Shown here: in pieces, positions 1,391 through 62,463 of the stretch
How positions within the stretch are numbered: the stretch's first letter is position 1
Layout: every line of letters starts with the position of its first letter
Assembly (NCBI GenBank): GCA_964276515.1
Contig: OZ193910.1
Coordinates: 3,472,001 to 3,536,000 of the forward strand
Source: Gordius albopunctatus
Lineage: Eukaryota
Reading direction: 5' to 3'
DNA: 64,000 bases
Position numbers and translations under genes: made by a program
Notes under the pieces: generated by a model
The model's input: the letters and a program-made list of their open reading frames with translations, nothing else
What the model was told of the DNA's origin: nothing
The model's database searches: none

Positions 1391-14175
<12,785 letters not shown>

Positions 14176-28137: not shown

Positions 28138-29985
28138 AAGGAAACGGCCTCTCAAATCTTGGGACGAACTAAGGGCGGCAGAGCTCGCAAGCGTGAACTA
28201 TGCTGGTGGAATGACTCGGTTAAAGAGGATATAGAAGAAAAGAAGGCGTTGTATCTACGATGGTACAAAACGAAGAAAGGAGAAGACTACGTGGCATATC
28301 GTAAAGCGAAACGCAAAGCTAAGATAGCGTTTGCGATAGCGAAGCAAAGATCAGGGAGAAAAAAAGTCGAGATGTCGGGACACTGAAAGTCATTAAAAGC
28401 GAAGAGGGACGAACGTTGTGCAAACCGAAGGAAGTCATCAAAAGATGGAAAGATTATTTCCAAAATATGATGAACAAAATGAATGATAGAAGACCGCAAG
28501 AGAGGGTGGAACCGAACTCGAACTTGGTTCTACCATTGCAGGCTTATGAATTAGGAGCGCAACTAACGAAGATGCGGAAAGGGAAAGCGCTAGGTCCCGA
28601 TAATTTACCGATCGAAGCTTGGCTTGGGTGCAAAGTAGAAGGAATCGACATAATGACAGGCCTATTTAACGCTATTCTGTATGAGAGTCGTATCCCTGAC
28701 CAATGGAGGGAAAGTACGATCATACCCATATACAAAGGCAAAGGAAACGCGCAGGAATGTGGCAACTTTAGAGGTATCAAGTTGACCTGCCACTCACTAA
28801 AACTACTAGAAAGGGTGCTAGTGAAAAGGCTCAATGACGAAGTCTGTCTCTCGCCCAATCAGTTTGGATTTGTGGCCGGTAAATCAACGATGGATCCAAT
28901 CTTTGCGTTGAAGCAGACGATGGAAAAATATGGTGACATAAGAAAGAACTTACACATGGTCTTCATCGATTTAGAAAAGGCCTACGATAGGGTTCCGAGA
29001 GAGTTAATATGGTGGTCCCTTAGAGCCAGAAATATACCCGAAGGATATGTTCGACTTATCAAGGAAATGTATAATGGTGCGGTTGCATCTGTTAGGACTA
29101 CCGTAGGAGAAACAAAACCCTTCCGAATAATGATCGGACTACATCAAGGGTCAGCGTTAAGCCTATTCGTGTTTAATCTAATTATGGATACAATAACAAA
29201 GGACTTGCACAAGCCAGCCCCTTGGACTATGCTATATGCCGACGATATTGTCCTATGCGATGAAACAAGAGAAGAGGTTTTTCATCAGGCGAAAAAATGG
29301 TCAGAACGTTTTTCGGAATTCGGGTTAAGACTCAGCGAGAAGAAAACGATTTACATGCAAACGATGGGCGGTAGTCCGCAAATGCACAAAAATGACGGTC
29401 CAATGTTCACATATCTTGGCTCGCTATACCGCCGAAGTCCATTCTCGGATCAAGAAAACATGGCTCAAGTGGCGCAGCATCTCCGGTGTCATGTGTGACA
29501 AGAAGATACCAATTTGGTTGAAAAGCAAGGCGTACAAAACCATCGTGCGACCGGTCTTGCTTTACGGGAGCGAAACATGGTCTGTAACCACCGCGGAGGA
29601 GAAACTCTTGCAAGTCACAGAAATGAGAATGGTGCGATGGAGCTTAGGCTACACCAAGCTGGATCGCATGACGAACGAATCCTTGATGACAAAGATGGGT
29701 ATACAAGCGACGAAGGACTTCTTAAGAGAAAATCGACTGCGGTGGTACGGCCATGTATTACGAAGAGACGAAGACGATGTCACACGCCAAACGCTGGAGA
29801 TGGACGTGCCTGGAAGAAGAGGAAGGGGCAGACCATGTGCCACCTGGAAACGACTGGTCGAAAAGGATATGGACGTCAAACAGATGGAAATTGGCATGGC
29901 ATTTACGCGACTCAGATGGAAGAGGCTGCTGAAAACGTACCCCACGTCTGTGGGATTTTCAACACGATAAAGAAGAAGAAGAAGA
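28138..29985 (+). mobile_element. 5'-truncated RTE LINE (RT), frameshifted
   Basis: RT motifs FIDLEKAYD, HQGSALS, YADD, RLRWYGHV; (AAG)n tail at ~29970-29985; same family as 62925-64000. Confidence 0.92.
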
Positions 29986-30370: not shown

Positions 30371-33030
30371 TGTAGATAAGGGGGAGAGGAATGTATTTAC
30401 AATTTTTTTATCCTAGCACATTTGTTTTTCAATTGTATACAAAATTAATTTATCCCTATCTTTTTAAATTGACAGATTACACCAGACTTGAAGTCGCTCT
30501 CCCTTCTCTTTAACACTAGGAATTAAGTGTTTTACTCTACAACTACCACTACATTAATACCACTGCTTTTCATAAATAATTTAACAATTTTGCCCCCCCC
30601 CCCCCATTTTTTTCCCCAGGTGATTTGCCCTCTCCCCTTTTACCCTCTCACTCACTCAGACCAAGGGGGCGGGCAGTCACCCCTACCCGGCCCCCTCTTG
30701 ATAAGTTATAGAGTAAAAAAATGGGTAGGGGGGGGGGGGGATCAACCCTCCCCCCCCCCCCACGCTCCCGTGCGAGGAAGAGGGTAAAAAAGGGTAGGGG
30801 CAAATCCCCCCCCCTTTGGGTGACGGATAGGGTGATAAGTGTAGAGAGGTAATAGGAGCGCGAAGTGCCTCCGGGATACGTTAGTTACCTGCGTGTTGTC
30901 GTTATTTACCTGTGTGTGGTCAATCAAAAATTATGATTAATTAGTTGTAACTTATATATGCGTTTGATATACACGTCTTACTCACTTACTATTTTCTTAC
31001 TATTGTGATATCCTTTCGTAACGTGTTTTTGAAGATTATTTCCCCGCTCCTAACAGTGGCATCGTGAAGCCTACGCGGAGATGCAGAAATATAAAACAAC
31101 GGCGAACATCGACGCTTTTATAACACAATTTGAGCTATTCCTAAGGAGCAATAAGACGGAGACAGATTAGTAAAAAGCAGCTCTATTATTAACCAGCCTG
31201 GATGTGGAGACATTCCAATTAATACTAGAGGATTATAGACCTCAAGAGTTGACAGGAATTACATATGAAGAAGCTAAAAATTGGTTAAGAAAATTATTCC
31301 AGAGGAATTCATGCGCGAGGGCGAAGATGTATGAATTCTCAAAGGTTCGACAAGGCCAGGGAGAGACGATAGACGCGTACGCTAATAGACTCAAGGCCGG
31401 AGCAAACAGCTGCAACTTCGGGAACGAAGAGTTACAGAACAGAATCGTCGACCAATTCATTATAGGATTGCGCGATAGAAGCTTAAAGGCGAGACTATTG
31501 GCAGAAAATGACATCCAATGGGACCGCCTACGGGAGCTGGCGGCAAAGCACCTGGCAGGACGGCCCGAAGAGGCGTGGAGCGTATTAGCGATACGAGAAG
31601 CGTGGCCTGAGCCGACCCAGATTCCCAGGTTAAACCATGCTTTATATGTGTTAACAGTAGATATATATATTAATAACGAGTTATTCCAATGCATCTTTGA
31701 TACGGGCGCGACGATCGCGATAATACAGGTGCAAAGATGGGCAAAGGAGATCCCACGCAATAAAGAGCCCGTCCCGATGGTGTACGCGTACGGCCACGAG
31801 GAAATAAAGATCGTAGCCAAGGTACAAGCCGATTTCCGAACGAGGAACACGAGGAAACAGCTGTTGTTATTATTAGCAGACGTAGCGGGGCCGCCGTTAT
31901 GCGGGATAGATTGGATCCAAGAATTCGAGCCCGAAATCTGGCGTCGGATACGTTGGAACTCGAGAGCTGCGGCGGACGGTTCGCGGTCAAATACATGGAA
32001 AGACCGAAGAATACCAAATCCGCGATCGAGCACTTGATGAAGCAATGGGATGGCAAGCTAAATGAATGTCCAAAAGCAGTCAAGGGAATAACAATGGAAG
32101 TGCCGTTAAAAGAAGGCATAAATCCCGTATTTATCCCCGCACGAAGGGTGCCGATGGCATGGAAGAAAGAAGTGGAAGAAGAGTTGGACAAATGGGTCAG
32201 AGGCGGAGTAATAGAACCAATCGGTTTTTCAAGATGGGCCAGTCCAGTGGTACCCGTAAAAAAAGCGATGGGAGCCTGCGATTATGTATAGATTACCGGT
32301 TTACGATAAATAAACACGCCCAAGGTTTGTTGTACCCCTTACCCAAAATCAACGATTTGTTAAATAAACTCGATAACGCGTGTTTTTTTTACGAAGCTGT
32401 ACCTAACGAAAGCGTACTTACAGCTGGAATTAAGGCCAGAGACGAGCCAACGATTGACTATCTCTACGCAAGGGCTTATTTAAAGTTAACCGGATGCCTT
32501 TTGGCTTAAATTGTGCCGCGGCGATTTTCCAAAAAACAATGGATCAAATATTAGAAGGCATAGAGGAGGTAGCGGTATACATCGACGATATACTAATTGC
32601 AGAGGAAACGGAAGAAATCTACAACGAGCGGTTACTCAAAGTACTAGAAACGTTACAAAAGTGGGGGTTCATGCCAAACATTGCCAAGAGCATATTGTGG
32701 GTAAAGGAAGTAACCTTTTTGGGATAGGTAATAAGTAACAAAGGGATTCAAATCAACAACAATAAAACCGAACTAGTCAAGCAGTGAAAGAATTTAACAA
32801 ACAAAAATGAAATACAATTGTTCCTTGGGTTAACAGCATATTTTTCAAAGTTCATTAAGGACTACGCCAAAATCGTGCACCAGATTCAGAAACTCGTGAA
32901 AAAAAACGTGATGTACCACTGGGGTGAAAAAAAACAAGGCGCATTTGAAGCCATCAAGTCCGCGCTTACGAAAGCCCTCCTACTGGCATACTTTAATGGA
33001 GATTGGGAGACGGGCCTGGTCGTAGAATAA
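30371..33030 (+). mobile_element. Truncated Ty3/Gypsy LTR retrotransposon (5' LTR, PBS, gag-protease-RT), degenerate
   Basis: Putative LTR end ...CTAACA followed by PBS TGGCATCGTG (~31057), Gag MHR-like RQGQGETIDAYANRL, protease FDTGA, RT WASPVVPV/MPFGL/YIDDIL. Breaks off before RNase H/integrase. 5' boundary uncertain. Confidence 0.85.
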
Positions 33031-33149
33031 TGGTTTAATATAGAAGAGTTCGATACGCGTGAATAAACGCCTCTAGCGAAAGTTTCTTACGAAACCGTAC
33101 CTAGGGGAATCCAGGATCGGGCCTAACCCGGTCCCGGATTTATTATTAT

Positions 33150-33269
33150 TATGCATCCAATGTATAAATACACCCGTCTGCCCTCCGGGTATCACTTGTC
33201 TTTTTTCCTACGTGACACCCTCCTCACCTTTTTCGCCCAACTTGTCCCCAAGACTTATTCCCTAAATTT
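33150..33269 (+). promoter_or_regulatory. 120-bp direct-repeat module with CCAAT, TATA and Inr (copies 33150-33269, 35923-36042, 36233-36352)
   Basis: CCAAT directly before TATAAATA (33163); Inr-like TCACTT with its A 31 nt downstream (33194), which is canonical Pol II spacing. Confidence 0.6.
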
Positions 33270-33280
33270 TTTGGTAGTGA

Positions 33281-33990
33281 ATGGTTAATACAAGGTCCCA
33301 AGACCACCATAATAGTTTCTTTTTGATTACACCTGAAACGTCTATGACTTCACCACCTACCAACACGAACTTAAGGGCTGGATCAGGCACCGACAACGTT
33401 GTAGAAGGGTTACTGGCAAGAATAGCCACTATGCAGGAAACGGCCGTAAACGCCCTAACAAGACAAGCTGAAGGACAGAGAGTACAAACTGAGGCCCTGC
33501 AGCAACTACTACAGCGGACATCGCTGGGGCCCACATCAACTGCTTCCACCCCAACACTGCCTCCCAACACTCAACAAGGGGGGCCCTCAACCCTCCAAAT
33601 TATGCCAGCGCCGGAGCCGCCGCGAACAATCGCCTCTGTGTTAGACGATATCAACCTGCACAAATCCTAGACCCCGACAACAAGGCGGCTAAGAGGGATA
33701 AACATGAGGCGAAATTCGCCATCCACTGCGCTAAACTCACCAGGATACCAAAGACTCTTGAAGAACTGATCCCCATAGATGATCAGCTCAAGAAAATGTG
33801 CCTGGCAATTAAGTTTAACTGGAAAACGGCTGCTTCACAGGACTCCGTATGACTTAAGGAAATGAGAATGCAAGACGTGGACGTCAAGAAGGACGCTCAG
33901 CGCCGACAGTTTTTTCCGAGAGCTGGCAGGGGCGGAAGCGCACCTAAGGGCCGCAACGTCAAAAAGGGCGCGGCCCCTGCCAAGGGTTAG
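33281..33990 (+). pseudogene. ORF1 (Gag/core-like) of the 3083-bp element; frameshift near 33655 and TGA near 33850
   Basis: MVNTRSQ..., a helical region, then in a shifted frame ...KRDKHEAKFAI...LAIKFNWKTA...RRQFFPRAGRGGSAPKGRNVKKG* with a basic RGG tail. Gag/core identity inferred from position and composition. Confidence 0.6.
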
Positions 33991-35915
33991 AAAGCGCCTC
34001 AACAAAGTTGCAGCAAAATGGGAGTTCGGGCCAAATGGCTTACCGACTCCCCACGGCGATTCGAATATAGTTTCCCCTATGTGGCTTAAAAGTGTTTTTC
34101 ACTTTCTTAGGGAAACGCGACGTATAATCTTTTCGCCACCCAACGATGACGGACCGCTGCTGCCGGACACTCCGCCGTCTACTCCGCCGCCACATACCGA
34201 CTCCCCGCCATTACCTACCGAGTTGGAACAGCGCCTCGCTGACTCCGAGCCATCCCTCGTCCGGGACGCGGGATCGGGACAAATCCGATCCCTAATACAA
34301 GCGCACAAAGTGTTCTTCGGCTGGAGCAAAGCGACTTCCTCCGCTAAACCCAATGGCGTACTCGACATTCGTACCTCACGCTTAATACCGCACGAGCTCA
34401 TGTCGCCGTTTAGCAGGAAGGTAGCCACAAAAGGCTACAAAGCCTTTCTAGATGCGTACAACATCAGACTTAATGGAGGACTGATACAGCCCCCCAAGTC
34501 GAAAAGATACTCGAAAGGCTCCCCGGCCTTCTTCACCGAAATGATACGGGCAGGAATCGTTTCAAGAGCGGCGAAACTCCTAATCCGATCTGCCACCTTC
34601 TTTATAGCAAAACCTAATGGGGACGCAAGGGTAATTACCGATCTTTCGCATGCATCTAGGAATTTCGTCCCCAAACCTATGAAGTTGGCAAATATACCGC
34701 TTACAGCCAAACATCTTGCGGCAGCGCGATGGGCCGCGAAAATCGATTTCAAGGCCGCCTTCTTCTCTATACCAATCCACCAGAGCACGAGAAAATACTT
34801 GGGATACGTATGGCGGAGGAAGCCCTTCGAATACAACGTGCTCCCCATGGGGACCTCTTTCTCTCCCTTCGTGCTCCAAATGATAGTGAGCGACTTGGCT
34901 AAGAAAGCCGTGAAACGATCCAAGTATAACGTTTACCTGGACGATCTGCTGATATATAGCGACAAATACGACAACGTCCAGGAAGACCTGGAGGACCTGG
35001 CCGACCTCGCCAAAGCATGGGGTCTTACAATAAATGTAGCCAAGTCCTCGATTATGCCGACTCAACGCATCGAGTACCTAGGCATGGAACTCAAACTCGA
35101 CGTCTCGGCAATTAAGTACAAACAAGGCACTGCTGACCGACTACAAATCGTGGCAGATATCCTCTTCCTCGGCACTAACACGTGATGTCCCGATCAACAC
35201 GCTGCTTGAGGCGCTCGGCATTCTTAATTACTTCTTTTACAATTTAACAGGCATGTCCAAGTTGTTTTCCAGCTTCTATAGCCTCACAAGAAGCGACCCC
35301 CAGTGGTTAGATAGGAACTTAGCAGCTAATAAACTCATGGCGATTCTAAAGCTAACACACGAGACCATACCGCTCTGGGTTAAATCATCCAACATCGTAT
35401 ACGTTGACGCCTCGGGAACACACATAGGGATAATGGATAGCTACGGGTGGCACTCAAACAGCTTCGTAAATGCGGCGGCGTCCTTCTGATGGCGATGGAG
35501 AGAACCGTATCACATCACCCTATCCGAGACAGTAGCGGTTCTGTATGGCTAAGTTCGCTCTTTCCTCAGCGGCCACAATCACCCTAAACTAATAAACGAC
35601 TCAGCTACGGCATACTACGTCCTCAAAAAAGGGGGATCAAACTCTCCTATCATCGAGGAAGTAATAGCAACGTTCGTTAAAACGTACGGCGTCAAGCACC
35701 TGCTCAACATACACTTTAACCTATCATGGATACCGACACACCTCAACCCGGCCGACAAACCATCCCGACAATGGGCACCTGACACACCGGATAGCGAACT
35801 ATCAAACACGGATATTGACTACGTCCTTCAACACGGACTCCCGAATGACGATGACATAGACCTGGCTTTTTGGGAAAACGAAATACCGGTCGAAATAGTC
35901 GATCTAGAACCATAA
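33866..35915 (+). pseudogene. ORF2: reverse transcriptase + RNase H; frameshift near 35175, stops near 35487 and 35550
   Basis: RT motifs FFIAKPNGDARVITDLSHASR, KIDFKAAF, LPMGTSFSPF, YLDD, IEYLGM; thumb LLEALGILNY. RNase H tetrad VDASG / HITLSET / INDS / WIPTHLNPADKPSR read by eye. Frame is open from 33866 and ends TAA 35913-35915. Confidence 0.88.
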
Positions 35916-37386
35916 CAAACCCTATGCATCCAATGTATAAATACACCCGTCTGCCCTCCGGGTATCACTTGTCTTTTTTCCTACGTGACACCCTCCTCAC
36001 CTTTTTCGCCCAACTTGTCCCCAAGCCTTATTCCCTAAATTTCGTTTTTACCACACACTTACGCGCATTTATTCACTTATACGCGATCTCGCTTTACGCA
36101 CGCTTATAATTTTTATATTTTATTGTGCTGCTTCGATACGCGTGAATAAACGCCTCTAGCGAAAGTTTCTTACGAAACCGTACCTAGGGGAATCCAGGAT
36201 CGGGCCTAACCCGGTCCCGGATTTATTATTATTATGCATCCAATGTATAAATACACCCGTCTGCCCTCCGGGTATCACTTGTCATTTTTCCTACGTGACA
36301 CCCCCCTCACCTTTTTCGCCCAACTTGTCCCCAAGACTTATTCCCTAAATTTTTTGGTAGTGAATGGTTAATACAAGGTCCCAAGACCACCATAATAGTT
36401 TCTTTTTGATTACACCTGAAACGTCTATGACTTCACCACCTACCAACACGAACTTAAGGGCTGGATCAGGCACCGACAACGTTGTAGAAGGGTTACTGGC
36501 AAGAATAGCCACTATGCAGGAAACGGCCGTAAACGCCCTAACAAGACAAGCTGAAGGACAGAGAGTACAAACTGAGGCCCTGCAGCAACTACTACAGCGG
36601 ACATCGCTGGGGCCCACATCAACTGCTTCCACCCCAACACTGCCTCCCAACACTCAACAAGGGGGGCCCTCAACCCTCCAAATTATGCCAGCGCCGGAGC
36701 CGCCGCGAACAATCGCCTCTGTGTTAGACGATATCAACCTGCACAAATCCTAGACCCCGACAACAAGGCGGCTAAGAGGGATAAACATGAGGCGAAATTC
36801 GCCATCCACTGCGCTAAACTCACCAGGATACCAAAGACTCTTGAAGAACTGATCCCCATAGATGATCAGCTCAAGAAAATGTGCCTGGCAATTAAGTTTA
36901 ACTGGAAAACGGCTGCTTCACAGGACTCCGTATGACTTAAGGAAATGAGAATGCAAGACGTGGACGTCAAGAAGGACGCTCAGCGCCGACAGTTTTTTCC
37001 GAGAGCTGGCAGGGGCGGAAGCGCACCTAAGGGCCGCAACGTCAAAAAGGGCGCGGCCCCTGCCAAGGGTTAGAAAGCGCCTCAACAAAGTTGCAGCAAA
37101 ATGGGAGTTCGGGCCAAATGGCTTACCGACTCCCCACGGCGATTCGAATATAGTTTCCCCTATGTGGCTTAAAAGTGTTTTTCACTTTCTTAGGGAAACG
37201 CGACGTATAATCTTTTCGCCACCCAACGATGACGGACCGCTGCTGCCGGACACTCCGCCGTCTACTCCGCCGCCACATACCGACTCCCCGCCATCACCTA
37301 CCGAGTTGGAACAGCGCCTCGCTGACTCCGAGCCATCCCTAGTTTCGGCGAGTTGTTAGGGCACCGAACGCTACTAGATTTCAGAT

Positions 37387-37560
37387 GGTGCCCTATCAGC
37401 TCGCCGAAAACAATCTCGCCGAAATTAATGTCCCCCAGTTAAAAAAAGGTCCCCTAATTTAAAATCGTCCCCCATTCAACCAATCACAAAACGGGGGACC
37501 TTTTTTAACTGGGTGACATTAAATTCGGCGATATTGTTTTCGGCAAGTTGACGGGCCACC
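37387..37560. mobile_element. Palindromic Mutator-like MITE
   Basis: ~70-bp TIRs (GGTGCCCTATCAGCTCGCCGAAAAC... / ...GTTTTCGGCAAGTTGACGGGCCACC) and 9-bp TSD ATTTCAGAT (37378-37386, 37561-37569). Solo ends at 37342-37365 and ~1285-1307. Confidence 0.8.
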
Positions 37561-38742
37561 ATTTCAGATTGGTATCCGCGATGAGAATAAAGCCAACGTC
37601 GGGAAAGGGTTAGGCGATATACAATTTGTATGCGAGTGTTACATAATCTTTCGCTTAAAGTCAAACTACGGGCGGCCAAAATTAAATCATTGCAGTTTTT
37701 TTATTTTTGACTAGTGAGAATTGCATTCCATTATATTGTGAATTAATCCTAGTTTTATATTAATATTTATGTAACCATATTTATGTAACTATATAAATTT
37801 TAAAATGAAATAACAATAGTTGTCCTATTCAGATATAATTTTTATTTAAAAAGTGTAAGAGTGGAAATTCATGCCTAATACATTAAATGTCCAAAGCATT
37901 CAACATTTTTTGAGTTACGATGTTACGAATGCACAATATTTACTAATTACAAGGTATAACTTTTAAAACAAGTTCTTGAATTTAATTTGAACAATAAGTA
38001 TATAGAATATAAATGTTAAGAAGCACATTAAAACTATTTTATCGATAAAAATTAAAAATGGGTTAAATTTATAAAAAAAAATATTCATACTAGAATTATG
38101 AGCAAGCTATATACATTTGTAAGTATTGGTTAATATTAGATAAGCAAATATGATTTCAAACCATAAATTTAGCCAATCTAATTTCTTAATATAAAAATTT
38201 TTGATAGTACACAACTACTCATCTATATTTAATTGTATTAAATTTTGTAATGCATTTAAGTAGCACATGTCTAAATTCCTATAACAAAGTCTAATTTCTT
38301 AATATAAAAATATGATAGCACACCACTACACATCTATATTTAATTGTATTGAACTTTGTAATGCATTTAAGTTACACATATCTGAATTTCCATAACAAAG
38401 TCTAATTTATGAATACCAATAGCTAGAACTTTATTAGAAGGTCAAACAAGTAAGTGCATACAAATAGCTTTTAAATATATTTAATAAATAAAGGCTTGTT
38501 ATACATTTATGCACTATGAGACTAAATTTAACAAAATAAGAACCATCTAATAAATATCATCGACTATAACTTTATAAAAAGATCAAATCAATCAATTAGC
38601 ATACAACTTGCCTTATCTTTAATTACCAAATTAATTAAATTAATATTTGCTATATATCCCGAGTCTTTAGAATTTACAGTAAGGATTATTTGTCCACAAT
38701 AAATAATCAAACTAAATGATAAAATCTAAAATTAAAAAGGAT

Positions 38743-45007: not shown

Positions 45008-47190
45008 TACCTACGACGGTCCCAAGTCCGTGTGGAAAAAGTGGAGGGTTGGCGTCAGGTCGGAAACCGGCTATAAAAATCAACTCCAAAATGTATGATA
45101 GTTTCAAACGAGATTTTACAAGAAAAGGCTAGGGCGTCGTCCACAAACGACGCGCACTGCATACCCCGCCCGTGCAATGTGAAAAATACACTAGGGTTAC
45201 TGCCCAACTCACAACGAAGGCGTTTAAGGAAACTAGCTGTGGAAAGAATGCGAATTACGTGCTGGAATGTGGGAACGTTGACGGGGAAGAGCATCGAGGT
45301 CGCACAGATGTTAAAAATAAGAAAGGTACACATCGCCTGCCTACAAGAGACGAGGTGTAACGGAACGAAAGCTAGGGAATTAGGAGAAGGATACAAGCTT
45401 TTCTACAGTGGGTCACCAAATCGTAGAAACGGGGTCGGCATCGTTCTAAGCGAATCGTTCAAGGACAAGGTGGTGGAAGTCAAACGTTGTTCCGACAGAC
45501 TAATGTGGGTGAAGATTGCGGATCAAGGGGGCCTCCTAACCGTTATGTGCGCGTATGCTCCCCAAATTGGGTGTTCGGAATCAGAGAAAGACATATTCTT
45601 CGAATCATTGGAAAAGGAAATACAAGAAATCCGACAGGAAGAAAGGCTAATTATTGGGGCCAATTTCAACGTTCACGTAGGAAAAGATCGCCTCGGGTAT
45701 GAACGCAATCCTGGAGGCTATGGGCATGGTCTGAAGAACAAAGAAGGGGAAAAACTTCTCCAAGTATCCCAAGCATATGACATGGCGATCGTTAACACCT
45801 ATTTTCAAAAGTGCGAAGATCCTATTGTGACCTTTAGAAGTGGGAAGCATTTTAGTCAAATCGAGTATTTGCTTATACGGCGAAAGGACTTATTGAGTAT
45901 CAAAGATTGCAAAGTAATACCGGGAGAAGAAATCGCCAGGCAACATCGTCCCCTTGTTATGGATCTTGACAGAAGAGTATTTGCCGAAAGAAGAAAGGTA
46001 TATGAACCTCGAATTCGATACGAAAGGCTAAAGGATACGTCGACGAACGAAGAATACCATCAAAAAGCCTCCTCACTCTTGGGTGCAAGGAAGTTGCAAA
46101 GGGACGTAGACGAAGATTGGGAAACGCTATCTAAGGACATTAAGGAAACAGCGATTCGTGTTCTAAGACAGACCAAAGGAGGCAAAGCTATGAATAGGGA
46201 ACTATGGTGGTGGGATAAATCGGTTAAAGATTTCATCGAAATAAAGAAAAATCTATATAGACGGTGGCATAAATTAAAAAAGTCGGAGGATTATCAAGAG
46301 TACAGGGACGCAAAGAGGGCCGCAAAAAAGGCCGTTGCAAAAGCGAAGAATGCTGCGTACACCGAGATGGCAAACAAACTGGATCATAAAGGGGGCGATA
46401 GGCTTATGTACAAATTGGCCAAGATAAGGGAGAAGAAAAGTCGAGATGTCGGAGTTCTTAAAATAGTCAAAAGCGAGAAGGGTCAAACCTTATTCAAGCC
46501 AAAGGAAGTGATGGAAAGGTGGAAAGGATATTTTAAGAAACTTATGAATATTGCAAATGACAAGGATTCCCTTCCCGAAATTGAGCCAAATATAAGTATG
46601 GTCGAACTCTTTCAGAAAGATGAGGTTAGGACACAAATGAACAAGATGCAAAAAGGAAAAGCAAATGGCCCAGATGGAATACCTATGGAAGCATTGCTCG
46701 AATGTCGTGAAGAAGGAGTCACCACCATGACGAACCTCCTTAACAAGATATTGGTAGATGAGCGAATCCCTAATCAATGGAGTGCAAGCACGATTATACC
46801 CTTATTCAAAGGAAAAGGAGACCCTCAGGACTGCGGCAATTACAGAGGTATCAAGCTAACTTGCCACTCCTTGAAGCTTTTGGAAAGGATCTTAGTAACA
46901 AGGCTGAAAAATGAGGTGGAAATATCGGCTAATCAATTCGGATTCGTGGCCGGCAAATCCACAATCGACCCAATCTTCGCCCTAAGACAAATGATGGATA
47001 AGTATGGTGAAAAGAGGAAAGACCTACATATGATTTTTATCGACTTGGAGAAAGCTTATAACACGGTCCCCCGCGATTTAATATGGTGGTGCCTGAGGAA
47101 ATAAAATATCCCTGACGCATATATACGGCTTATGAAAAATATCTATGAAGCCTCAAACTCTTGCGTTAGGACGACAGTTGGAGACTCTAT
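45008..47190 (+). mobile_element. 3'-truncated RTE LINE (5'UTR, APE, N-terminal RT)
   Basis: 669-aa ORF with TCWNVGTL, CLQETR, AYAPQ, NYRGIKL, FIDLEKAY; stops before the YADD motif. Confidence 0.92.
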
Positions 47191-48079
47191 CTTTAGAGTC
47201 CTTTACTAGTTTATCAAAAAGCAGCGTGGAAATTTTGAGCCCACAGGCACATATTTATACCATGACTATAACATTATACTCAACAACTTAATTAGAAATA
47301 AAGAAACTGTTAAGCAATGAGTAACTCTTATATAGAAGGAATACCCTAGAGCTCCCTCGTATATAGGCTTAAACTTTAGTAATGATTCTATCCCGTCTAA
47401 ATTTTGATCCTGCGAGTCAGGCTCTACTTAAATTGTTCGGACTAGTCAACCCCCACCCCCCCCACCCCCCACAGTCCTGAATACTCTTCTTTAGACATTA
47501 TCGGTATATGCCTATCTATACTATTTTCAAGGCTCTTACCCCCTTCCACACAACAAGCCACGTCGCTCGCAGGGGATTTAGGCGTCATGTAAGGTATATG
47601 CATGTGCATGTTGTTTCAATGTGAGAATTTTCGTTGCAACAACATAATCGAGATATTTAAGCTTCCCCCCTCCCGCATTAACTCCCACGACCCTGCTACT
47701 CCTATAATACCCTGGTAATTTCTTTCCTTCGGAAAAATTATTATATGTGAAGGGACTAAGTTAACTACTCACTCCCCACATATGTCTTCGTTAATACTTC
47801 ATCTCGTCAGCTCTACTTATATGAGCTTTGATTAAGACCCACTTACCCCCAAATCAAACCCAGGTCATTCAAGCCGCTAAGTACTTTAATCGTCATGTGT
47901 TTTCGGCTAGCCTCGCTCTTAAAAAAGATTTGAAACCGTTCAATTAATACTTCGTCATAATATTGGGCTAGGGCTCGTAGTCTGCATATCGACACCTCAA
48001 AATATATTAATTTAAGAAAGGTTCAACTCATCAGATCATAATTTCTGCCCCTACCGCGTCCTCACCAACTTAACAGCTA

Positions 48080-50961
48080 ATGAAGATCAAAATAGCTTAT
48101 ATAAATATCAATTCCCTTATGATCCAAGGCAAACAACAGATGATGCTAACATATGCAAGAAAGCATAAACTCGACATCCTTTGTCTACAGCAGACGTGGA
48201 TTCCTCATTCTAGGATCGACAGCAGCTCAGAGTACACCCTTTACCACGTGGGTTTTACAGATAATCCAGCAACAGGGGTTTCGACTTTCATAAATAAACG
48301 TCTTCCCGTTCTGAGTTTCGACTGGGTAAATGAAAGAATTCTTATAATCAATCTAACAATAGGGGTACGTGTGTTGTCGGTGATAAATGTTTATGCCCCT
48401 ACATCCTCCTACAAAACTAAGGTTATTAACGAATTTTTCAGTCTTCTCTTTGACAAAATCAAAGAATTAAGCCGCAAGTCGGTGCCAATTATAATTGGCG
48501 ACTTGAATTCATCCGTCGGGCGCACTGACCGTGACAACTATAATTTAATAGGCCCTAACACCCTAGGCTCCAACAACAAAAATGGTATTATTCTAAAAAA
48601 ATGGTGCAATATGGGAAATTGGCGAATTTCTTCAACTTTCTCAGATCTTCCCTATAATCGGCTGGCCACCTTCCGGAAAAAAAACAACTTGCAATCAAGC
48701 CAAATAGACCATCTGATCTGTAGGGCAAGACATCTAAAAATATTCAAAAACTTTCATGTAATCGTGGACCCCCTCACCGATGACGCCGACCATTGTGCAA
48801 TAGCCGCTGAACTAGTGCTGAAAGCAGCCACCCTACGTGTTCCTTCGAAACGCAAACCCCCCTAAATAAGGCCCCAAGGTCTGTCCCAAACCACTGAATT
48901 TAGGGACCACCTTCACCTAAAAATCCAAAATAGCAATCTCTCCGACCTGTCGATAAACGACCACAGCATAAAAATATCTGAAATATTTACAATTCCCTTG
49001 AAAGACCAGTGTCGAATTAGAACAAAGACATGGTTTTCAGAAAAAACAATTTGGCTCCTCAAGACAAAATCTAACATCTACTGTGATAGAAATGAGTTTC
49101 CTTTCAAAAACGCATGCTTATCCGCTCTCAGCAAGCGGATTAAATCCAGCATCAGACAAGATAAAATTGCGTTTATTAAAGCAAAAACCACAGAGGCCGA
49201 AGAGGCAGCACGTTCCAATAACAATCACCAGCTATTTACCATTCTAGACAGCCTTAACTATAACACATTCTCCAAACGAGCCTACAATAGCATAAGCACA
49301 GTTGGCGGCTCAAACGACTCCTTGGCCCAAACCAAACCTTGTGAAGACCATTTTCGTTCAATTTTATCGGCCCAGCCCGTATTTCCTGTAGTGGATATAT
49401 ACAGAGGATTTATCGTTAACTTCAAAGGCCCACCACCCCTCCACATCGATTTGGACCTACCCTATTTATCTGAAATTGACAGAGCTATCAAGTCACTCAA
49501 ATTCCACACAGCGGCCGATCCGTCAGGCCTAACCTCGGAAGCACTCAAAGCCGACCCCCTTATCTCTAGCTCTCTTTTGCACCACTTGTTTCGGAAAGTT
49601 TGGACGAAAGAGGTAATGCCGGACTCCTGGACAATAGGTCACTTGATCAAACTTTTCAAAAAAGGTGATCCATCCAATCCCAACAACTACCGGGGCGTGA
49701 CTATCATTAACCTTGAATCAAAATATTCATCAAGGTTATTTACAACCGAATTTACAGCGAGGTGGATGAAATAATTAAAAACAATCAAACTGGTTTTAGG
49801 AAGTGCCGTACGACGACAGAGCACATAATAACTTTAAGGAACATAATGGATATTTCACGGACAAGCGGTTCCCCCCTGGTTCTTGTGTTTTTAGACATCG
49901 CTAAAGCTTTTGATTCGCTGTGCCATCTATAAATTTGGGAAGCACTATGCCTCTTAGGCTTGCCTAAGAAAATAATTCTCATGATCTTTCTACTCTACGA
50001 AAACATGAAACTAGTTATCTCCCACCTCCACTACAAATCGGAACCCTTACCAGTAACATCTGGTGTCAGGCAAGGTTGTCCGCTGTCCCCTCTCCTCTTT
50101 ATAATTGCGATGGATCTAATAATGAAGAGATCCACACTTCCGACAGATGGTATCAAACTAAACGGCACTACTCTATCATCCCTGTTGTTCGCAGACGACA
50201 TTTGTCTAGTGGCCCCTTCTATCTCCAAAGCACAACTAATGTTAGACAGGTTCAGCATCCAAGCCAAGCAAGCAGGACTGCTTATAAACCCTGACAAATG
50301 CTCAATGATATGCATAAACGATCCTTCGAACTCTACTCTGGTAATCAACAACATCGTAATAAATGCATCTCAAAAAGTCCGATATTTGGGAGTGGAGCTT
50401 ACTCCAGATACCTACGCCGAAGCGGATGCCGAATCGAAGCTCCGCCGGACCATGGTCAAATTCTACTCTTGCTCGGTGATATGGCGCTCACGTCAACTGA
50501 CGCTCCAGACGCGTTTGAGGATTTTCAAAGTCACGATCCTACCAATCCTCCTATACGGTTGCGAATCTTGGTCGCTGAAGGCTCCTAGCTTAAAGAAACT
50601 GCAAGTCAGTCTTAATAAAATGCTACGTATCGTTTGTCGGATATTTTATCCGTTGAGAATAACCAACGAGGATCTATGGGTGCGTTGCAAAATCGCTCCA
50701 ATTAAAAATATTCTACTCGCGAGAAAATGGGGTTTTTTGGCTCATCAAGTGCGGAGGAAGGGAACCAACTACTGTCTATCTTACCTGTTCTGGTGTCCAC
50801 CTCCGCTAAAAGGTCGCAAATGCAATGGCAGCTGGCTTTACAAGGTGTTCCGCGATGTCCAAACAATGGGTCATGATTGGAATTCATTGCTGCCCATCAT
50901 GCAAGAGAGGAAACGTTGGAAAGACTTCTCAAAGAACAAATTATTGTGGCTCCCCCAGTAA
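48080..50961 (+). mobile_element. APE-RT non-LTR retrotransposon ORF (RTE-X/CR1-like; clade uncertain), disrupted
   Basis: APE motifs YININSL, LCLQQTW, VYAP, GDLN, QIDH, ADH; RT motifs NYRGVT, RQGCPLSP, FADD, LLYGCESW; stops and frameshifts. Confidence 0.9.
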
Positions 50962-53028
50962 GGATCTTCTCACGCACTATTCATTTACTACCTTGCATTA
51001 AAGGCTTTACATTACTTTCAAGTCAACAGGTATTACATATTTACATGTCATAATTACACTGCATGTTAATCATTTTTTTACAGCCTACTTACACACGTTA
51101 TCACTAACGTGGCCTGATGAACTTCCCATCGCATCTTATGCAGAGTAAGGTTTCTTATAAAAAGCTAAGTGACCTTTTCCCTTTTAAAATAAATAACCCT
51201 TATTTCTAACTTTTTATTTTTCTCTCCCTCCTGTTGAAATAAAAGATAGCCTGATGCATGAGACCACCCACTAGTTAAATTGCCCTCCCTCCCTCGTATA
51301 TGTAATAATACTTGTTCCTGAAAATTGTAAGAGTGCTAGCAGATCTACGTATAATAACGTCTCATATTTGCCTGGCGCCGTCGTTCTAAAAATAAACTCT
51401 TGTGCTTCCATCATACTAGTAATGGTGTTAATGCTGTTACCCCTGACCCCGCCCCCTTTACCCTCCGCGTCTATTTCTCACCAAATTTATTATTCCCCTT
51501 ATCGCTTGCCTGTTTTGTTATTTATCTGGCTCTGCCGTTCATACTCTGAACTTCCAGAATATCATTATATGGCGAAGCATGCGAGCGCAGTGCAGTCGGA
51601 AATGCAACCCCCCCCTGACAATCCTTTATTTATAATATTATACTATAGTTATATAAAATGGTGTATCAATTTATTTTTGTATTGATCATAAGTTTATTAT
51701 TTCTTTAACTACCTATTTTCCTAAAAACTTAAGTGAACTTACAATATATATAACGTCAAACAACGTGTGTTTTTTTCTGACCACCTTTTTACAAGTTTTT
51801 GCAACCTATAAATCAGTCATTTTTAAAGATTTGTTTTGCAAATTAGTTGTCAATTTTAAATAAAGGGCTAGGCAAGCCTTTCTCTTGTTATTTATCTTTA
51901 ATTTATTTATTTGATTAACCATTAAATTATCATATTCTTCCTTCTGTCTATATTTTTTTTTTCACCATACTCAAATTTTTATATCAAACTTATTTTCAAA
52001 ATTATAATTAATTATTTGATCATATTTAATCAATTTTAGTGCTTAATATCAAATTTAGGTAAGCCTTCCAGTATTAACTTTTATTCAATATCTGAGCTTC
52101 CGTATTACTTATAATTTATTTCTCTGTATGAAGTTTAAATTCGCATTGGATAGTAGTCTAGGGCCTAGATAGGCGTCGTCAATTCAAATATATCAAGGTA
52201 TGGACTTACCCCTTCCCCACACATTTCTAAAAAAAAAATATACGTTATTCTTACTAATATTCCTTCTCAATGGGTGGTCCTGACTTTATATCTCTCCCTC
52301 CTACCACTTACCCCCCCCCCCCTATTCTAACGACGAAATTAACTGCGAGCTCAAGACGAAAATGCTACTAATGTTGTATAAGACACTCACTTGGGAGGTG
52401 TATGCTTTACTTTTACCCCCCACCCCCTCCTCTTCTAGGGTATTCGATATGTGCAAAACAAGGAATAGATACTCTAACTTATTATTCTCCCCTTATCGCT
52501 CCCGGAAGATTTCTGGCGGCACTACCGTCAATACCCAACTATGAAATTAAAAATAAGTCGGAAAAAGATGGGCTCCCCCTTATAAATAATATATTTGCCC
52601 ACCCCTCTACAAATAAGAGGTAGTTATTTATAACCAGTAATCAATTTTCCCGAACAAATACTTGCTAAAATGCTATAATATATAAAATACAAGGCCGGTG
52701 ACCCTCACCTCCCGCTCCCCTCTGGAGCGACTCTATTTTTAAACTAATATATTTTCTACTGATCAAATGCTTCCGGAATTGATATCGCTTAAATACTAGT
52801 TTACTCTAAAAATAAGAGTGAAGCAGATTGACCCCCTCCCCCCATTAAAAGGAAAGTTAACCTCTACCCCTCTACAAAAATGGTCTTATTTATAACCAGT
52901 AATTCATCTACGAACTCACTTCTAATATATTAACAATATACAAAACACAACTACTATTAAGTTTTAAAATTCGTTACTAAATCCGTCTCATTCCACCCCA
53001 ACTTTTAATCCCTTATACTCAAATTAAA

Positions 53029-55920
53029 ATGATCCTAAAATTGGCTTCACTCAATACTCAAACCTTAAGAGAACCAGGAACGCTACAGAGCCTTACTTTA
53101 TTTGCCTCCCACCACAGAATTCATATTCTTTGTGTTCAGCAAACAAGATATTCACATCGCAAAGTTCTCCCCATTAACGACTATAATTGCTATTGCACGG
53201 AATGCGGCCTTGAGACTGCATCAGGGGTAGCCATTTTTATAAAAAAGGAACTCAAAGTGATTAGCATCGACTATGTTAACAACAGATTATTAATCATTCA
53301 CTTAAAAATAAAAAAGCGTTGTTTATCAATTTTTAACATATACGCTCCCCCCTCTTCCAAAAATTCTCAATCGATGGAATCCCTCCTCCAAAACATCAAA
53401 GTTAAATTTAACACTAAACACCTTAAAATCCTCGTCGGTGACTTCAATGCTTCCGTCCAGCGCACACTGGGGGATAATAAATTAATAATTGGCCCAAACT
53501 CAATTGGACCGACTAACCGAAACGGTAAACTACTTAAAAAATTCTGCTGTAAACATAAACTAAAGATAACCTCAACCTTTTCCGACCTTCCTCTGGATAA
53601 CCTAATCACATACCAAAAGAATGAAAATCACCGAGGTACCCAAATTGATCATATAATAGGCCAACTAAGAAACCACAAAATGATAAAGAACTTCCAAACC
53701 TTTCAGCCTCTAATAAAAACAGATCACTTTGTCATCTCAGCTGATCTCTTTATTAATCCCTCCTCTCTCCACACGTCAAAAAAACTTAAAAATACCCATC
53801 TCGAGCAAACATAATCAGAGACATCTCTCAACTTGAGTCCAGATTACAAACAGACTCGAAGGCACTTGGCGATCTTGCCCCCCTCACAGTCAATGACCAC
53901 AATGACACCTTAGCACAGTTTTTCACTCCATCCCAGAATGACCATCTCCATGTCAACATTAAGTCCTGGTTCTCCATCGATACCATTTATCTACTCGAGT
54001 CCCGGTATAAAGTCTTTAAGGATAAGACACTTAGAAATAAAAAAGCATGGGTCCAACATCTCACTAAAAAGATTAAAGCGGCAATAAAAAAGGACAAGGC
54101 TAATTACTTATCAAGCAAACTAAATGAAGCAGAATCTGCTGCTCGCACAAACAGTACACACACCCTTTACAAAGTGCTCAGGAACATCACCGCAAAATTT
54201 TCAGACAAATATAACTACAATACAAAACAAACATAGCTCCAACGATTCCTTGATCCAAACGGAGGCTTGGGAGAGCCACTTTAGTTCCATTCTAGATCGC
54301 CCTTATTCAATCCCCTGTTCCGACATATTCCTTGAATTTATTAACAACTTCAAAACACCCTCCACCCCTTCTATCAGTGTTGAACCACCCTCCTTAAATG
54401 AAATAAAATACGTGTTAAAATCCCTCAAACTTCATAAAGCTCCCGATGCAGAAAAAATCACAGCGGAAGCCCTTAAAGCTGATTACTCCCTGTCTAGCAA
54501 ACTATTGCATCAACTCTTCACTAAAATCTGGCTACAAGAGATCATCCCCCGCGCTTGGTCTACTGGTCTACTTAGTAAAATCTATAAAAAAGGAGACCCA
54601 TCACTTCCCGATAATTATAGAGGGATCACAATTATAAATAACATTTTCAAGGTTTTTATAAAATTAATATATAGGAGGATATATCCATTCATTGACGATA
54701 ATTTAAAAAGTAACCAAGCCGGCTTCCGTAAGTCCAAAACCACAATTGAACACATCCTTACCATCAAAAATATTATTGACATCTCTAAATCTAAATCTCC
54801 TTTAGTCCTAACATTTGTTGACATTCATAAAGCTTTCGACTCCCTATCCCACCTTTACATATGGGAATCTTTATGTCTACTAGGAATCCCCAAAAAAATT
54901 ATTAGACTTATCTTCTTTCTGTACAAAGACATGAAAGTGGTCATAAAACATCTACACCACCGCTCAAACCCAATCCAAGTCAATTTAGGAGTTAGACAGG
55001 GATGTCCATTATCTCCTCTACTATTCATCACGGCAATGGATCTCATAATTAGGAGATCCACCCTTCCTTACGACGGTATCCACATGAACGGCATCAAAGT
55101 GTCTTCACTGCTATTTGCTGACGATTTATGCATCATATCGGATTCAACTCTCAAAACTCAGAACTTTGCCGATAGATTCGTCTTAGAATCCAAGAAAGCC
55201 GGTTTAATAATTAACCCTAACAAGACTAACTTACTATCTATTAACATACCCTCCCAAAATACTACATTGTCTATTAGCAACACTTTAATCCCTTTTTCAG
55301 ATTCAATAAACTACTTAGGAGTTCTTCTTTCTCTAGACAAATACTCCCACCAAGATGCCTCTAATAAATTATCTAAAGCTCTAAAGAGTTTTTATTCATG
55401 CTATTCAATCTGGAAATCCAACGAACTGGCTCTACCGACCCGCCTTCGGCTGTTAAAAACCACCATATTGCCTATATTCCTCTATGGATGCGAAACATGG
55501 TCCCTAAAAGGTTCGACCATAAAAGCGGCCCAAACTAAACTAAATAAAATGCTCAGAATAATTTGTAAAATATTCTACCCTGAGGTAATTAGCAATCCAA
55601 ACCTCTGGACCCTTTGCGAAATCCCTCCCATAAAAAACATAATTATATCACGGAAATGGAACTTCCTAGCCCACCAGACCAGACGCAATGGACTCAACAT
55701 TTGCTTAAGAGCAATTCTATGGAGACCCCCTCAACTAAAAAAACTAAAATGTCGAGGTTCCTGGATCTACAAAACTTTTTTGGAACTCCGCTCTCATAAC
55801 CACGAATGGAATACTATAATCCCCATAATGCAAAACAGATCCGCTTGGAAAGCCTTTTCTGCCTCCAATTTCCCTTCAAAATATCCCCTCCCAATCGCCT
55901 CAACTTCGAGCTGTCTCTGA
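53029..55920 (+). mobile_element. Second, diverged APE-RT element of the same family, disrupted
   Basis: SLNTQTL, LCVQQTR, IYAP, GDFN, QIDH, TDH; RT NYRGIT, DIHKAFD, RQGCPLSP, FADD; collinear with 48080-50961. Confidence 0.9.
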
Positions 55921-61349: not shown

Positions 61350-61404
61350 AGATTAAAGACCGTAAGGCCTGAAATTACTTTCAAGGTAATTGTAGATTTA
61401 ATCT
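61350..61404 (-). tRNA. trnS2: mt tRNA-Ser(UGA) copy without a D-arm (NUMT)
   Basis: Minus strand: acceptor AGATTAAA/TTTAATCT, anticodon arm ATTAC-CTTGAAA-GTAAT, directly after the cob stop. Confidence 0.75.
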
Positions 61405-62462
61405 TAGGCTATTATATATAAACAAATAAAAGACAAGAAATAGATAAGACTAAATACCTGCCCCAATGTGTAAAAGGGCTCTTCTACTACCTGGGAACCA
61501 ATAAAACTGAGAAGTAAAAAGGAGCTAGAAGCGATTGTTGCTATAGCTTGTTGGGGTTTATTGTAAATTGTGATATTTTTATTACTGCCTAAGGTTAAAA
61601 TAAGTAAAATAAAAAGGCTTATAAATAAAGCAACTACACCTCCTAGTTTATTAGGGACTCTACAAAGGATGCCATAAGCAAATAAAAAATACCATTCAGG
61701 TATGATGTGGGCAGGGGTAGAAAGAGGGTTTGTTTCAATAAAATTAGAAACGTCTGACAAGGAGTCCGGTGACAAAAAAGCAATTACTATTAAACCTGTA
61801 AGAGGTAGAATAAAAGCGGAAACATTCTTTCACGTTTATAACATGTGAAAGGATGTTTTTATTGTTTCAGATGGCAACCCTAAAGGGTTGTTGCTTCCTT
61901 TTTCATGTAGTAATATTAAATGAGCTAAAGATAGTGCTATTAAAAGTATAGGTAAAATAAAGTGCAAGGAGAAAAATCGACTTAAAGTAGGTTCGCCGAC
62001 TCTAAAACCCCCTCAGATCCATAATACAATACTTTTACCTAGATAGGGGACGGCAGAAAGCATGTTAGTGATAACTGTGGCTGCCCAGAAAGATATTTGC
62101 CCTCAAGGGAGGACATATCCTAAGAAAGTTGTGACTATAGATAGAGCAAGCATTACTCAACCTGTAATTCAAGTGTTCGGGTTTAAAGTATAAGAGCCGT
62201 AAAAAGTCTACGAAAAATATGCAAGTAGATAAATATAAATATAAAGGATGCACCTAGTGCATGGAATCTTCGAAAGGTGAACCCTTCTCACACATTATTT
62301 TCAATTATTAAAACAGATGTGAATGCTATGTGGGTGCTCGATGTGTAGTGTATAGATAAAAATAATCCTGACACGATCTGGGTTACTAGAAATAAACCTG
62401 TTAGTGACCCTATGTTTCATCAATAGTTTAGATTAGGGGGTGTCGGAAGATCGATAATAAAC
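61404..62462 (-). pseudogene. cob: Cytochrome b NUMT, 5'-truncated
   Basis: In the invertebrate mitochondrial code (TGA=Trp) it reads IIDLPTPPNLNYWWNMGS...PAHIIPEWYFLFAY...PNKLGGV. In-frame TAA near 61838 and a 1-nt deletion near 62203. Confidence 0.93.
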
Positions 62463-62463
62463 A

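What the first reader, a model, noticed from the sequence alone, without database searches (positions are those of the whole stretch)
33049..37340. Hepadnavirus-sized (3083 bp) integrase-less RT-RNase H element in head-to-tail tandem
Seen: the unit has only ORF1 and RT-RNase H, with no room for an integrase, tyrosine recombinase, protease, GIY-YIG or APE domain, and it restarts exactly 3083 bp later. The motifs lean towards hepadnaviruses rather than classical DIRS: RVITDLSHASR (HBV RLVVDFSQFSR), LPMGTSFSPF (HBV IPMGVGLSPF; DIRS usually LPFGL), WIPTHLNPADKPSR (HBV YVPSALNPADDPSR), and EMIRAGIV, which recalls the hepadnaviral T3 motif. Known: hepadnavirus-like retroelements (HEART) occur in invertebrate genomes and hepadnaviral genomes are ~3-kb circles. 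Inference: an endogenised or mobile pararetrovirus-like element integrated from a circular or concatemeric intermediate, possibly a new lineage in this host group.
Basis: partly seen in the sequence, partly recalled or inferred. Interest (0 to 1): 0.88.

Follow-up and report, generated by a model that had tools for sequence, protein, structure and literature searches.

The report
Integrase-less hepadnavirus-side retroelement in tandem
This animal genome holds a broken 3,083-base retroelement, repeated head to tail, that encodes a reverse transcriptase but no enzyme for inserting itself; its polymerase groups, with moderate support, on the hepatitis B virus side of the family tree, and it likely copies itself through a circular or multi-unit DNA form.

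Summary
Observation confirmed: the unit 33049-36131 restarts at 36132 (1212 bp, 99.7% identical) and holds only ORF1 and RT-RNase H; no integrase, recombinase, methylase, terminal protein or core match in six frames. The four motifs cited do not discriminate; each also occurs in DIRS, Ngaro or Gypsy proteins. The three closest proteins (39-43%) are horsehair-worm (Gordionus) RT-RNase H proteins without a methylase tail. This clade groups with unnamed HEART-like RTs and hepadnaviruses (90/91, unstarred), and joining it to DIRS/PAT/Ngaro is rejected in the dense tree (AU p 0.015) but not in three sparse tests. It lacks the Blubervirales RT signature, so it is not a hepadnavirus or proto-nackednavirus. 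Named HEART sequences were not in my trees. Best reading: a new HEART-grade, integrase-less lineage that likely replicates through an over-length RNA and a circle or concatemer and is inserted by host repair. A circle is not shown: there is one junction, and both copies share the ORF1 lesions, so local duplication remains possible. New variant of a known kind; interest 0.74.

The parts
33049..36131 (+). Whole unit, 3083 bp: A-B-ORF1-pol-B-C
33049..33149 (+). Segment A (101 bp): AATAAA at 33062, then two adjacent stem-loops (about 33071-33141); predicted RNA 5' end and poly(A) signal
   Evidence: motifs; the copy at 36132-36240 folds at -37.6 kcal/mol, z -3.8, 1 of 200 shuffles as stable; function inferred
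33150..33269 (+). Direct repeat B, copy 1 (120 bp; CCAAT at 33157, TATAAA at 33163)
33281..33990 (+). ORF1, about 235 codons, broken by one frameshift and one stop; Gln/Pro-rich N part, helical middle, basic Arg/Gly tail; likely the RNA-packaging protein
   Evidence: frames; no Pfam family above cut-off; Atlas gives only a weak Gag-like lead, 0.82 and 0.79; fold unreliable, pTM 0.17
33866..35915 (+). pol frame overlapping the end of ORF1: Pro-rich N part, RT (about 34649-35092, YLDD), thumb/connection, RNase H (about 35400-35780), 48-residue acidic tail; one frameshift and two stops; ends 7 bp before B copy 2
35923..36042 (+). Direct repeat B, copy 2 (1 difference from copy 1)
36043..36131 (+). 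Segment C (89 bp): T-rich, CpG-rich, TATAAT at 36105, 27 bp before the restart; part of the element, since a contig in each run joins the ORF1 5' part to a diverged C
   Evidence: (table 5c)
36132..37343 (+). Second, 3'-truncated unit: A, B copy 3 (36233-36352), ORF1 with the same lesions, start of pol
33027..33048 (.). 22-bp filler between the broken Gypsy element and the left end; no 11-mer of it elsewhere in the window
   Evidence: (Gypsy-family contigs diverge at 33026)
31174..33026 (+). Context: decayed Gypsy element (gag, protease, RT) cut at the start of its RNase H; its 3' half is not found downstream in the window
37343..37570 (.). Context: high-copy inverted-repeat (MITE-like) element that ends the array; the true right end and any target duplication are lost

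Best explanation
This is a decayed copy of a likely HEART-grade retroelement, encoding only ORF1 and RT-RNase H, that would replicate through an RNA longer than one unit into circular or concatemeric DNA and would be inserted by host break repair rather than by an enzyme of its own. Shown: gene content, repeat layout, tandem junction, a horsehair-worm clade of relatives. Supported by trees, short of a starred bootstrap: its place beside hepadnaviruses and outside DIRS. Inferred: transcription starts at A (TATA-like box 27 bp upstream in C), runs A-B-ORF1-pol-B-C and ends after the AATAAA in the next A, giving a short terminal redundancy; the stem-loops in A serve packaging or priming; the two B copies serve as a long DR1/DR2-like pair for strand transfer; a more-than-unit product was joined into a break in a Gypsy element, leaving 22 bp of filler. 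Priming cannot be hepadnavirus-type protein priming by a recognisable TP domain, since none is detected.
For: Layout and junction. No YR/IN/MT. Top 3 of 150 listed hits (E 3e-45 to 5e-35; next 9e-26) are Gordionus proteins; P0032 ends 11 residues after the RNase H motif and P0033 has an acidic tail, neither a methylase-like tail, whereas 41 of 63 hits with a detectable RNase H end have one by my pattern, so the compact pol is a lineage trait. Trees: element + Gordionus 100/99; with five unnamed HEART-like RTs and hepadnaviruses 90/91 (44 rows); same grouping at 87 among 173 rows with the 133-row DIRS clade at 97 (FastTree); RT-RNase H tree using natural P0032, 97 SH-aLRT (quick); still outside DIRS when hepadnaviruses (84) or the HEART-like rows (83) are dropped; AU rejects union with DIRS, p 0.015. 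Profile match to hepadnaviral P from RT to RNase H end, probability 98.8. TATA - start - AATAAA - stem-loops order parallels the rotifer virus RTPV, with a 33-nt redundancy and epsilon near the 5' end (PMC12691608). Unequal crossing between B copies would drop C and A, yet both are at the junction. Contigs over the duplicated part are deeper than those over the single part in X1 (870 against 526 and 555), a weak hint that the tandem is real.
Against: Only one junction is seen, and no contig's listed pieces spans it. Both copies share the ORF1 lesions, which a local duplication after decay explains equally well. The key node is never starred in a bootstrapped tree; three sparse-tree AU tests did not reject DIRS or Gypsy (p 0.155, 0.169; 0.148); the 44 rows and the DIRS group were picked. 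126 of 149 hits are DIRS-clade, and the RNase H scored slightly better on a 4-row YR-type profile than on an 11-row hepadnaviral one (25.6 against 21.9 bits). No named HEART, nackednavirus or proto-nackednavirus was in any tree. The stem-loops lie before B, while epsilon lies after DR1 in PnNVs. No short DR1/DR2 pair exists. The right end is lost. No RNA, circle or second full copy was seen.
Confidence: 0.5

Rival explanations
1. Same HEART-grade lineage, but a linear element (terminal repeats B, or a 3' tail B-C-A regenerating the promoter) whose tandem is a local duplication of an already dead copy, or an assembly duplication; insertion by host repair or by LINE proteins in trans; no circle.
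For: Shared ORF1 lesions and 99.7% identity; B holds CCAAT and TATAAA like a small LTR; LINEs with endonucleases are abundant in the window; one junction only.
Against: The duplication starts exactly at the element's left boundary and includes no flank; C-A is kept; B has no TG...CA ends (sequence); depth hint of two copies (weak, and the runs may be the assembly's source).
Confidence: 0.27
2. A split-direct-repeat YR retrotransposon (PAT/Ngaro type) that lost its recombinase and one internal repeat, with B as repeat 'A' and C+A as repeat 'B', mobilised by a recombinase in trans.
For: [quoted passage not shown]
Against: AU p 0.015 in the dense tree; outside DIRS in every tree, also without hepadnaviruses; Gordionus relatives end the same way with no methylase; the pol stop sits 7 bp before B, unlike a random deletion; the repeat order does not fit without a second loss.
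Confidence: 0.12
3. An endogenised true pararetrovirus (Blubervirales, near proto-nackednaviruses) integrated as a concatemer.
For: Size, gene order and 5' signals resemble nackedna/PnNV genomes (PMC12691608, PMC11551314, PMC5604429); sister position in sparse trees.
Against: No TP match, no core match, YLDD, and none of TGxxFLVxKN, SQFS, P[KR][YF], SLD, SDG, PMGxG[LI]SP that run through the PnNV and hepadnavirus rows I read; outside the 100/100 hepadnavirus clade; diverged copies in the runs point to spread within the genome; no relative in IMG/VR.
Confidence: 0.08

Closest known systems
Unnamed Gordionus sp. RT-RNase H proteins (XP_065317776.1, XP_065315139.1, CAK9296138.1, CAK9296137.1)
   Same: 39-43% identity over RT, colinear thumb and RNase H, shared PMGx[SG]FSP, VYLDD, VDASxxHxG, no methylase tail
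   Different: Annotated only as uncharacterized proteins; their flanks, repeats and ORF1 could not be read here
HEART retroelements (Gong and Han 2018; Ixodes rows in PMC12691608 data sets S4, S6)
   Same: Invertebrate genome, RT beside Blubervirales; DxSH after the first RT strand and PFxxQ after LP[MF]G, by eye; the sister clade of five unnamed proteins resembles the Ixodes rows more closely
   Different: VYLDD against W-x-[HY][LI]DN; LPMG against LPFG; a separate long-branched clade; HEART's mobilisation is called unresolved (PMC12440569) and I saw no description of its termini
Proto-nackednaviruses, nackednaviruses, hepadnaviruses (Blubervirales)
   Same: About 3 kb, ORF1 overlapping pol, RT-RNase H, no integrase, NPADxPSR, similar order of 5' signals
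   Different: No TP, no core motif, no YMDD, no 11-14-nt DR1/DR2; a 120-bp repeat instead; multi-copy in the chromosome
DIRS1/PAT/Ngaro tyrosine-recombinase retrotransposons
   Same: Most numerous RT relatives, direct repeats, overlapping ORF1 and pol, no protease
   Different: No YR, no methylase, no L-x-WW motif in the connection, repeat order not A1-B1-A2-B2, RT outside the clade

Membership tests
HEART | RT groups with Blubervirales, outside DIRS and Ortervirales | tested here: met
   90/91, 87, 97 with RNase H via P0032, AU against DIRS p 0.015; support moderate; sparse tests inconclusive
HEART | Nests within or is sister to the named HEART1/HEART2 or Ixodes HEART sequences | not testable with these tools
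   Named rows were only read in a supplement; sister to an unnamed HEART-like clade at 86/72
HEART | Endogenous in an invertebrate genome, without viral structural genes | tested here: inconclusive
   Chromosomal context of LINEs, Gypsy and a cytochrome b insert read under the invertebrate mitochondrial code; host group not established; ORF1 unassigned
Blubervirales (hepadna-, nackedna-, proto-nackednaviruses) | Terminal protein domain with priming tyrosine | tested here: not met
   No DNA_pol_viral_N match; profile match to P begins at RT1
Blubervirales (hepadna-, nackedna-, proto-nackednaviruses) | Core protein | tested here: inconclusive
   No Pfam core match, but PnNV cores are very diverged (PMC11551314) and the single-sequence fold failed
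Blubervirales (hepadna-, nackedna-, proto-nackednaviruses) | RT signature (FLVxKN, SQFS, SLD, SDG, PMGxG[LI]SP, YMDD) | tested here: not met
   Compared by eye with rows and fetched genomes
Blubervirales (hepadna-, nackedna-, proto-nackednaviruses) | Short DR1/DR2 and an epsilon stem-loop downstream of DR1 | tested here: inconclusive
   No short pair between the 5' region and the RNase H end; a 120-bp pair and two stem-loops instead
Blubervirales (hepadna-, nackedna-, proto-nackednaviruses) | Circular extrachromosomal genome | not testable with these tools
   No raw reads; only assembled contigs of two runs
DIRS1/PAT | Tyrosine recombinase | tested here: not met
   six frames; other family copies not readable
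DIRS1/PAT | Methylase domain after RNase H | tested here: not met
DIRS1/PAT | Inverted terminal repeats with ICR, or A1-B1-A2-B2 split repeats | tested here: not met
   No inverted repeat over 10 bp in the unit; order is A-B...B-C
Ngaro | RT in the Ngaro clade, YR after RNase H, split direct repeats | tested here: not met
   Never joins the Ngaro-like P0003; lacks the insert after DLS; no YR
Metaviridae/LTR retrotransposons | Protease, integrase, TG...CA LTRs | tested here: not met
   Ortervirales rows form a clade without it, 100/99

The most novel reading that the evidence does not exclude
A non-viral lineage at the root of the hepatitis B virus order that already replicates as a 3-kb circle, with a 120-bp repeat pair in place of DR1/DR2 and no terminal protein or integrase: the first whole-unit anatomy of a HEART-grade element and a living model of the step from retrotransposon to pararetrovirus.
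Probability: 0.3. Interest if true: 0.9.

Novelty: new variant of a known kind. Interest (0 to 1): 0.74.

Why it matters
HEART elements are proposed as the source of hepadnaviruses (PMC12691608), yet their mobilisation is described as unresolved (PMC12440569), and in the papers I read they appear as RT sequences only. A near-complete unit with boundaries, a repeat pair, candidate RNA signals and a head-to-tail junction gives concrete predictions (RNA start at A, end in the next A, unit-length circles, no target duplication) that can be checked in existing genomes and reads. It also extends this grade to a clade found in Nematomorpha, which the supplement I searched does not mention.

Tried and rejected
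No whole genome is held for this window, so other copies, termini and target duplications were not mapped. No RNA holder listed. Rfam at E 5 over 32900-37500: 0 matches, so no known ribozyme. IMG/VR: no relative of the RT or of P0001; patterns for DIRS-type and PnNV-type RTs found 0. The metagenome scan gave 12 loci from 105 pattern matches, Gypsy in all I could read. Word-seeded searches found 1 of 1382, 0 of 1009 and 5 of 7998 candidates and missed the Gordionus proteins. Single-sequence folds of the RT (pLDDT 34) and ORF1 C part (pTM 0.17) were unusable, so no fold search was run. Atlas on the RT lists Preaxostyla RTs, retroviral and hepadnaviral fragments at 0.94-0.96, not discriminating. 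The T3, LPMG, DLS and NPAD arguments were rejected as non-specific. The cytochrome b insert has no long perfect inverted repeats, so it does not confirm a horsehair-worm host. Two of 11 pattern loci sets: of L098-L108 only 3 were DIRS-type RTs. The YR tblastn control rested on one unverified ORF and carries no weight. Four look-ups of earlier findings returned nothing. Literature searches 'DIRS + lacking tyrosine recombinase + tandem' and 'HEART + Blubervirales + retroelement + tandem' found 0 papers; the original HEART paper is not held and may describe termini.
Full report
Observation. The unit 33049-36131 is followed at 36132 by a second copy that matches for 1212 bp with 4 mismatches and no gaps, then stops at an inverted-repeat element. 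The unit is 48-51% GC in a window mostly near 30%. It carries ORF1 and an overlapping pol frame with RT (PF00078, E 4e-25) and RNase H. Pol has one frameshift and two stops, ORF1 one frameshift and one stop, and the ORF1 lesions are in both copies. Six frames with stops read as X gave no recombinase, integrase, protease, endonuclease, methylase, TP or core match. A 120-bp direct repeat B, not in the finding, lies before ORF1 and 7 bp after the pol stop, so the order is A(101)-B-ORF1-pol-B-C(89), then A-B-ORF1.

Surroundings. On the left a Gypsy element breaks off at 33026, at the start of its RNase H, followed by 22 bp that match nothing of 11 bp or more in the window. Its 3' half is not found downstream, so the right side has been deleted or rearranged and no target duplication can be read. 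Two public runs of one study hold 69% and 65% of the unit's sampled words; they may be the source of the assembly. Their contigs include copies 89-93% identical and, in each run, one contig that joins the ORF1 5' part to a diverged C. The family therefore has several diverged members and C belongs to it. Summed depth is not a copy number. Termini of other copies were not mapped.

The motifs. None of the four is specific. P0001, an RT-RNase H protein with a Dam-like tail, ends its RNase H with the same NPADKPSR and scores E 0.041 on the hepadnaviral RNase H model against 0.045 for the element; P0004 has NPADEPSR. LPMG occurs in the Gypsy loci, which were selected on that motif (five printed), and my pattern found PMG in 13 of 149 hits, five of them in the DIRS clade. 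DLS and PMG occur in Ngaro rows of PMC12691608 data set S4. EMIRAGIV aligns with the helix DLLKQGVL of foamy virus RT, 30 residues before the RT strand, while T3 sits about 230 residues upstream in avihepadnaviruses. The marks shared by the PnNV and hepadnavirus rows I read are absent.

Relatives and trees. A full phmmer scan of 1.84 billion representatives gave 12,834 hits at E 0.001 and 3 at 1e-30; the best 150 were listed. The top three are Gordionus sp. proteins, colinear with the element through RNase H and without a methylase-like tail. Of the 149 new hits, FastTree placed 3 with the element, 5 in a neighbouring clade (H1), 8 in a loose grade (H2), 7 with Ortervirales and 126 in a DIRS-type clade. 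These proteins are mostly unnamed; I call them DIRS-type from the Dam-like tail and from likeness to named rows in the supplement, not from a recombinase seen beside them. H1 resembles the Ixodes HEART rows by eye. From the 173 rows I picked 44 (4 element clade, 5 H1, 6 of 8 H2, 5 of 7 hepadnaviruses, 6 Ortervirales, 18 of 133 DIRS-type). The careful tree gave element clade 100/99, with H1 86/72, with H1 and hepadnaviruses 90/91. AU rejected union with the DIRS rows, p 0.015. Dropping hepadnaviruses left it with H1 (84), dropping H1 left it with hepadnaviruses (83), and H1 alone joined hepadnaviruses (84) (quick trees). An RT-RNase H tree of 34 natural proteins, with P0032 standing in, gave 97 for the same group (quick). 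Against this: three earlier trees of 23-29 rows gave 89/84, 77/87 and 84/78 with long-branch warnings, and AU did not reject DIRS (p 0.155, 0.148) or Gypsy (0.169); the RNase H piece scored 25.6 bits on a YR-type profile, 21.9 on a hepadnaviral and 7.5 on a Gypsy one. A four-row profile aligns to hepadnaviral P from RT1 to the RNase H end (probability 98.8) with nothing in TP.

Mechanism. In the junction, TATAAT (36105) lies 27 bp before the restart, AATAAA 13 bp after it, and two stem-loops follow (z -3.8). PMC12691608 describes a rotifer virus RNA with a 33-nt redundancy between TATA box and poly(A) tail and epsilon near the 5' end. I infer an RNA that starts at A, crosses the C-A junction and ends in the next A, which needs a circle or tandem as template; reverse transcription with strand transfers using the short redundancy and the B pair; and insertion by host repair. 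B2 lies at the end of pol and 310 bp before B in the junction, as DR2 lies at the end of RNase H in nackednaviruses (PMC5604429, passage). All of this is inference: B has its own CCAAT and TATAAA and could be the promoter, the primer is unknown, and the single junction with shared lesions fits local duplication too. I give the circle or concatemer model 0.5, a linear HEART-grade element with local duplication 0.27, a YR-less split-repeat derivative 0.12 and a true endogenised virus 0.08. The HEART-grade placement, common to the first two, stands at about 0.75.

Comparison and novelty. It works most like a TP-less, integrase-less forerunner of hepadnaviruses. It fails tested features of Blubervirales, DIRS1/PAT, Ngaro and Metaviridae. 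It meets the tree criterion for HEART with moderate support, but nesting among named HEART rows could not be tested. Searches showed no paper describing a tandem or repeat-flanked HEART unit or one in Nematomorpha; the original HEART paper (PMID 29924338) is not held, I saw nothing of it, and it may describe termini. The host of this window is not established; only the relatives are known to be from a horsehair worm.

Papers seen. PMC12691608: parts 1-2 of 3 of the text; supplement 6 part 1 and HEART passages; supplement 4 parts 2, 5, 6 and DIRS/Ngaro passages; supplement 5 (cut); supplement 10 passages. PMC11551314: part 1 of 2. PMC12440569: abstract and passages. PMC7192593: abstract and section 28. 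PMC4157794, PMC8547959, PMC6681497, PMC5604429, 10.1101/2022.02.16.480762, 10.1101/829473, 10.1101/2023.06.26.546503: passages. PMC10380579: search listing. Supplements of the preprints were not seen; the repeat table of the Gordionus genome preprint could bear on novelty.

Verdict. A real feature and a new variant of a known but poorly understood kind. Interest 0.74; the most novel reading has probability 0.3 and would deserve 0.9.

Noticed in passing
L007:1574-6805 and L002:1349-6454 (JGI metagenome contigs): Chromodomain Gypsy elements with a SET domain inserted between RNase H and integrase (PF00856, E 1e-6 and 3e-7, above cut-off); a similar stretch is visible in L008 and L011, absent in L003.
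   Followed up: partly
proteins P0058, P0054, P0151, P0156, P0157, P0110, P0111, P0165, P0086, P0107, P0081, P0037, P0154: Thirteen unnamed RT(-RNase H) proteins outside the DIRS clade, those with a readable end lacking a methylase-like tail; P0058 and P0110 pass the hepadnaviral RNase H cut-off. Several lie on contigs of 2.6-3.4 kb. Probably further HEART-grade lineages.
   Followed up: partly
window 33505 joined to 36066 (runs X1, X2): One contig per run joins the ORF1 5' part to a diverged segment C: a likely internally deleted family member of about 550 bp keeping A, B and C.
   Followed up: no
window 36043-36232: TACGC occurs 4 times in the 190 bp of C+A (32 times on this strand in 64 kb); CpG observed/expected 2.9 in C; an imperfect inverted repeat pairs C with A.
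   Followed up: partly
window 33151-33288: A 45-codon open frame starts at the first ATG of repeat B, upstream of ORF1; nackednaviruses have small ORFs there (PMC5604429), but chance is likely.
   Followed up: no
window 61404-62593, minus strand: Nuclear copy of a divergent mitochondrial cytochrome b, frameshifted.
   Followed up: partly
window 28323-29979 and 62926-64000: Two LINE copies in opposite orientation, 96-97% identical; further LINEs at 45077-47101, 48074-50958 and 52981-55917.
   Followed up: no
window 7848-8132 and 8559-8843: Perfect 285-bp inverted repeat around 426 bp, likely a young non-autonomous DNA transposon.
   Followed up: no
L101, L107, L108: Canonical DIRS1-type RT-RNase H frames in contigs filed under prokaryotic MAGs, one on a 516-kb contig labelled as an archaeon; most likely mis-binned eukaryotic DNA.
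   Followed up: no
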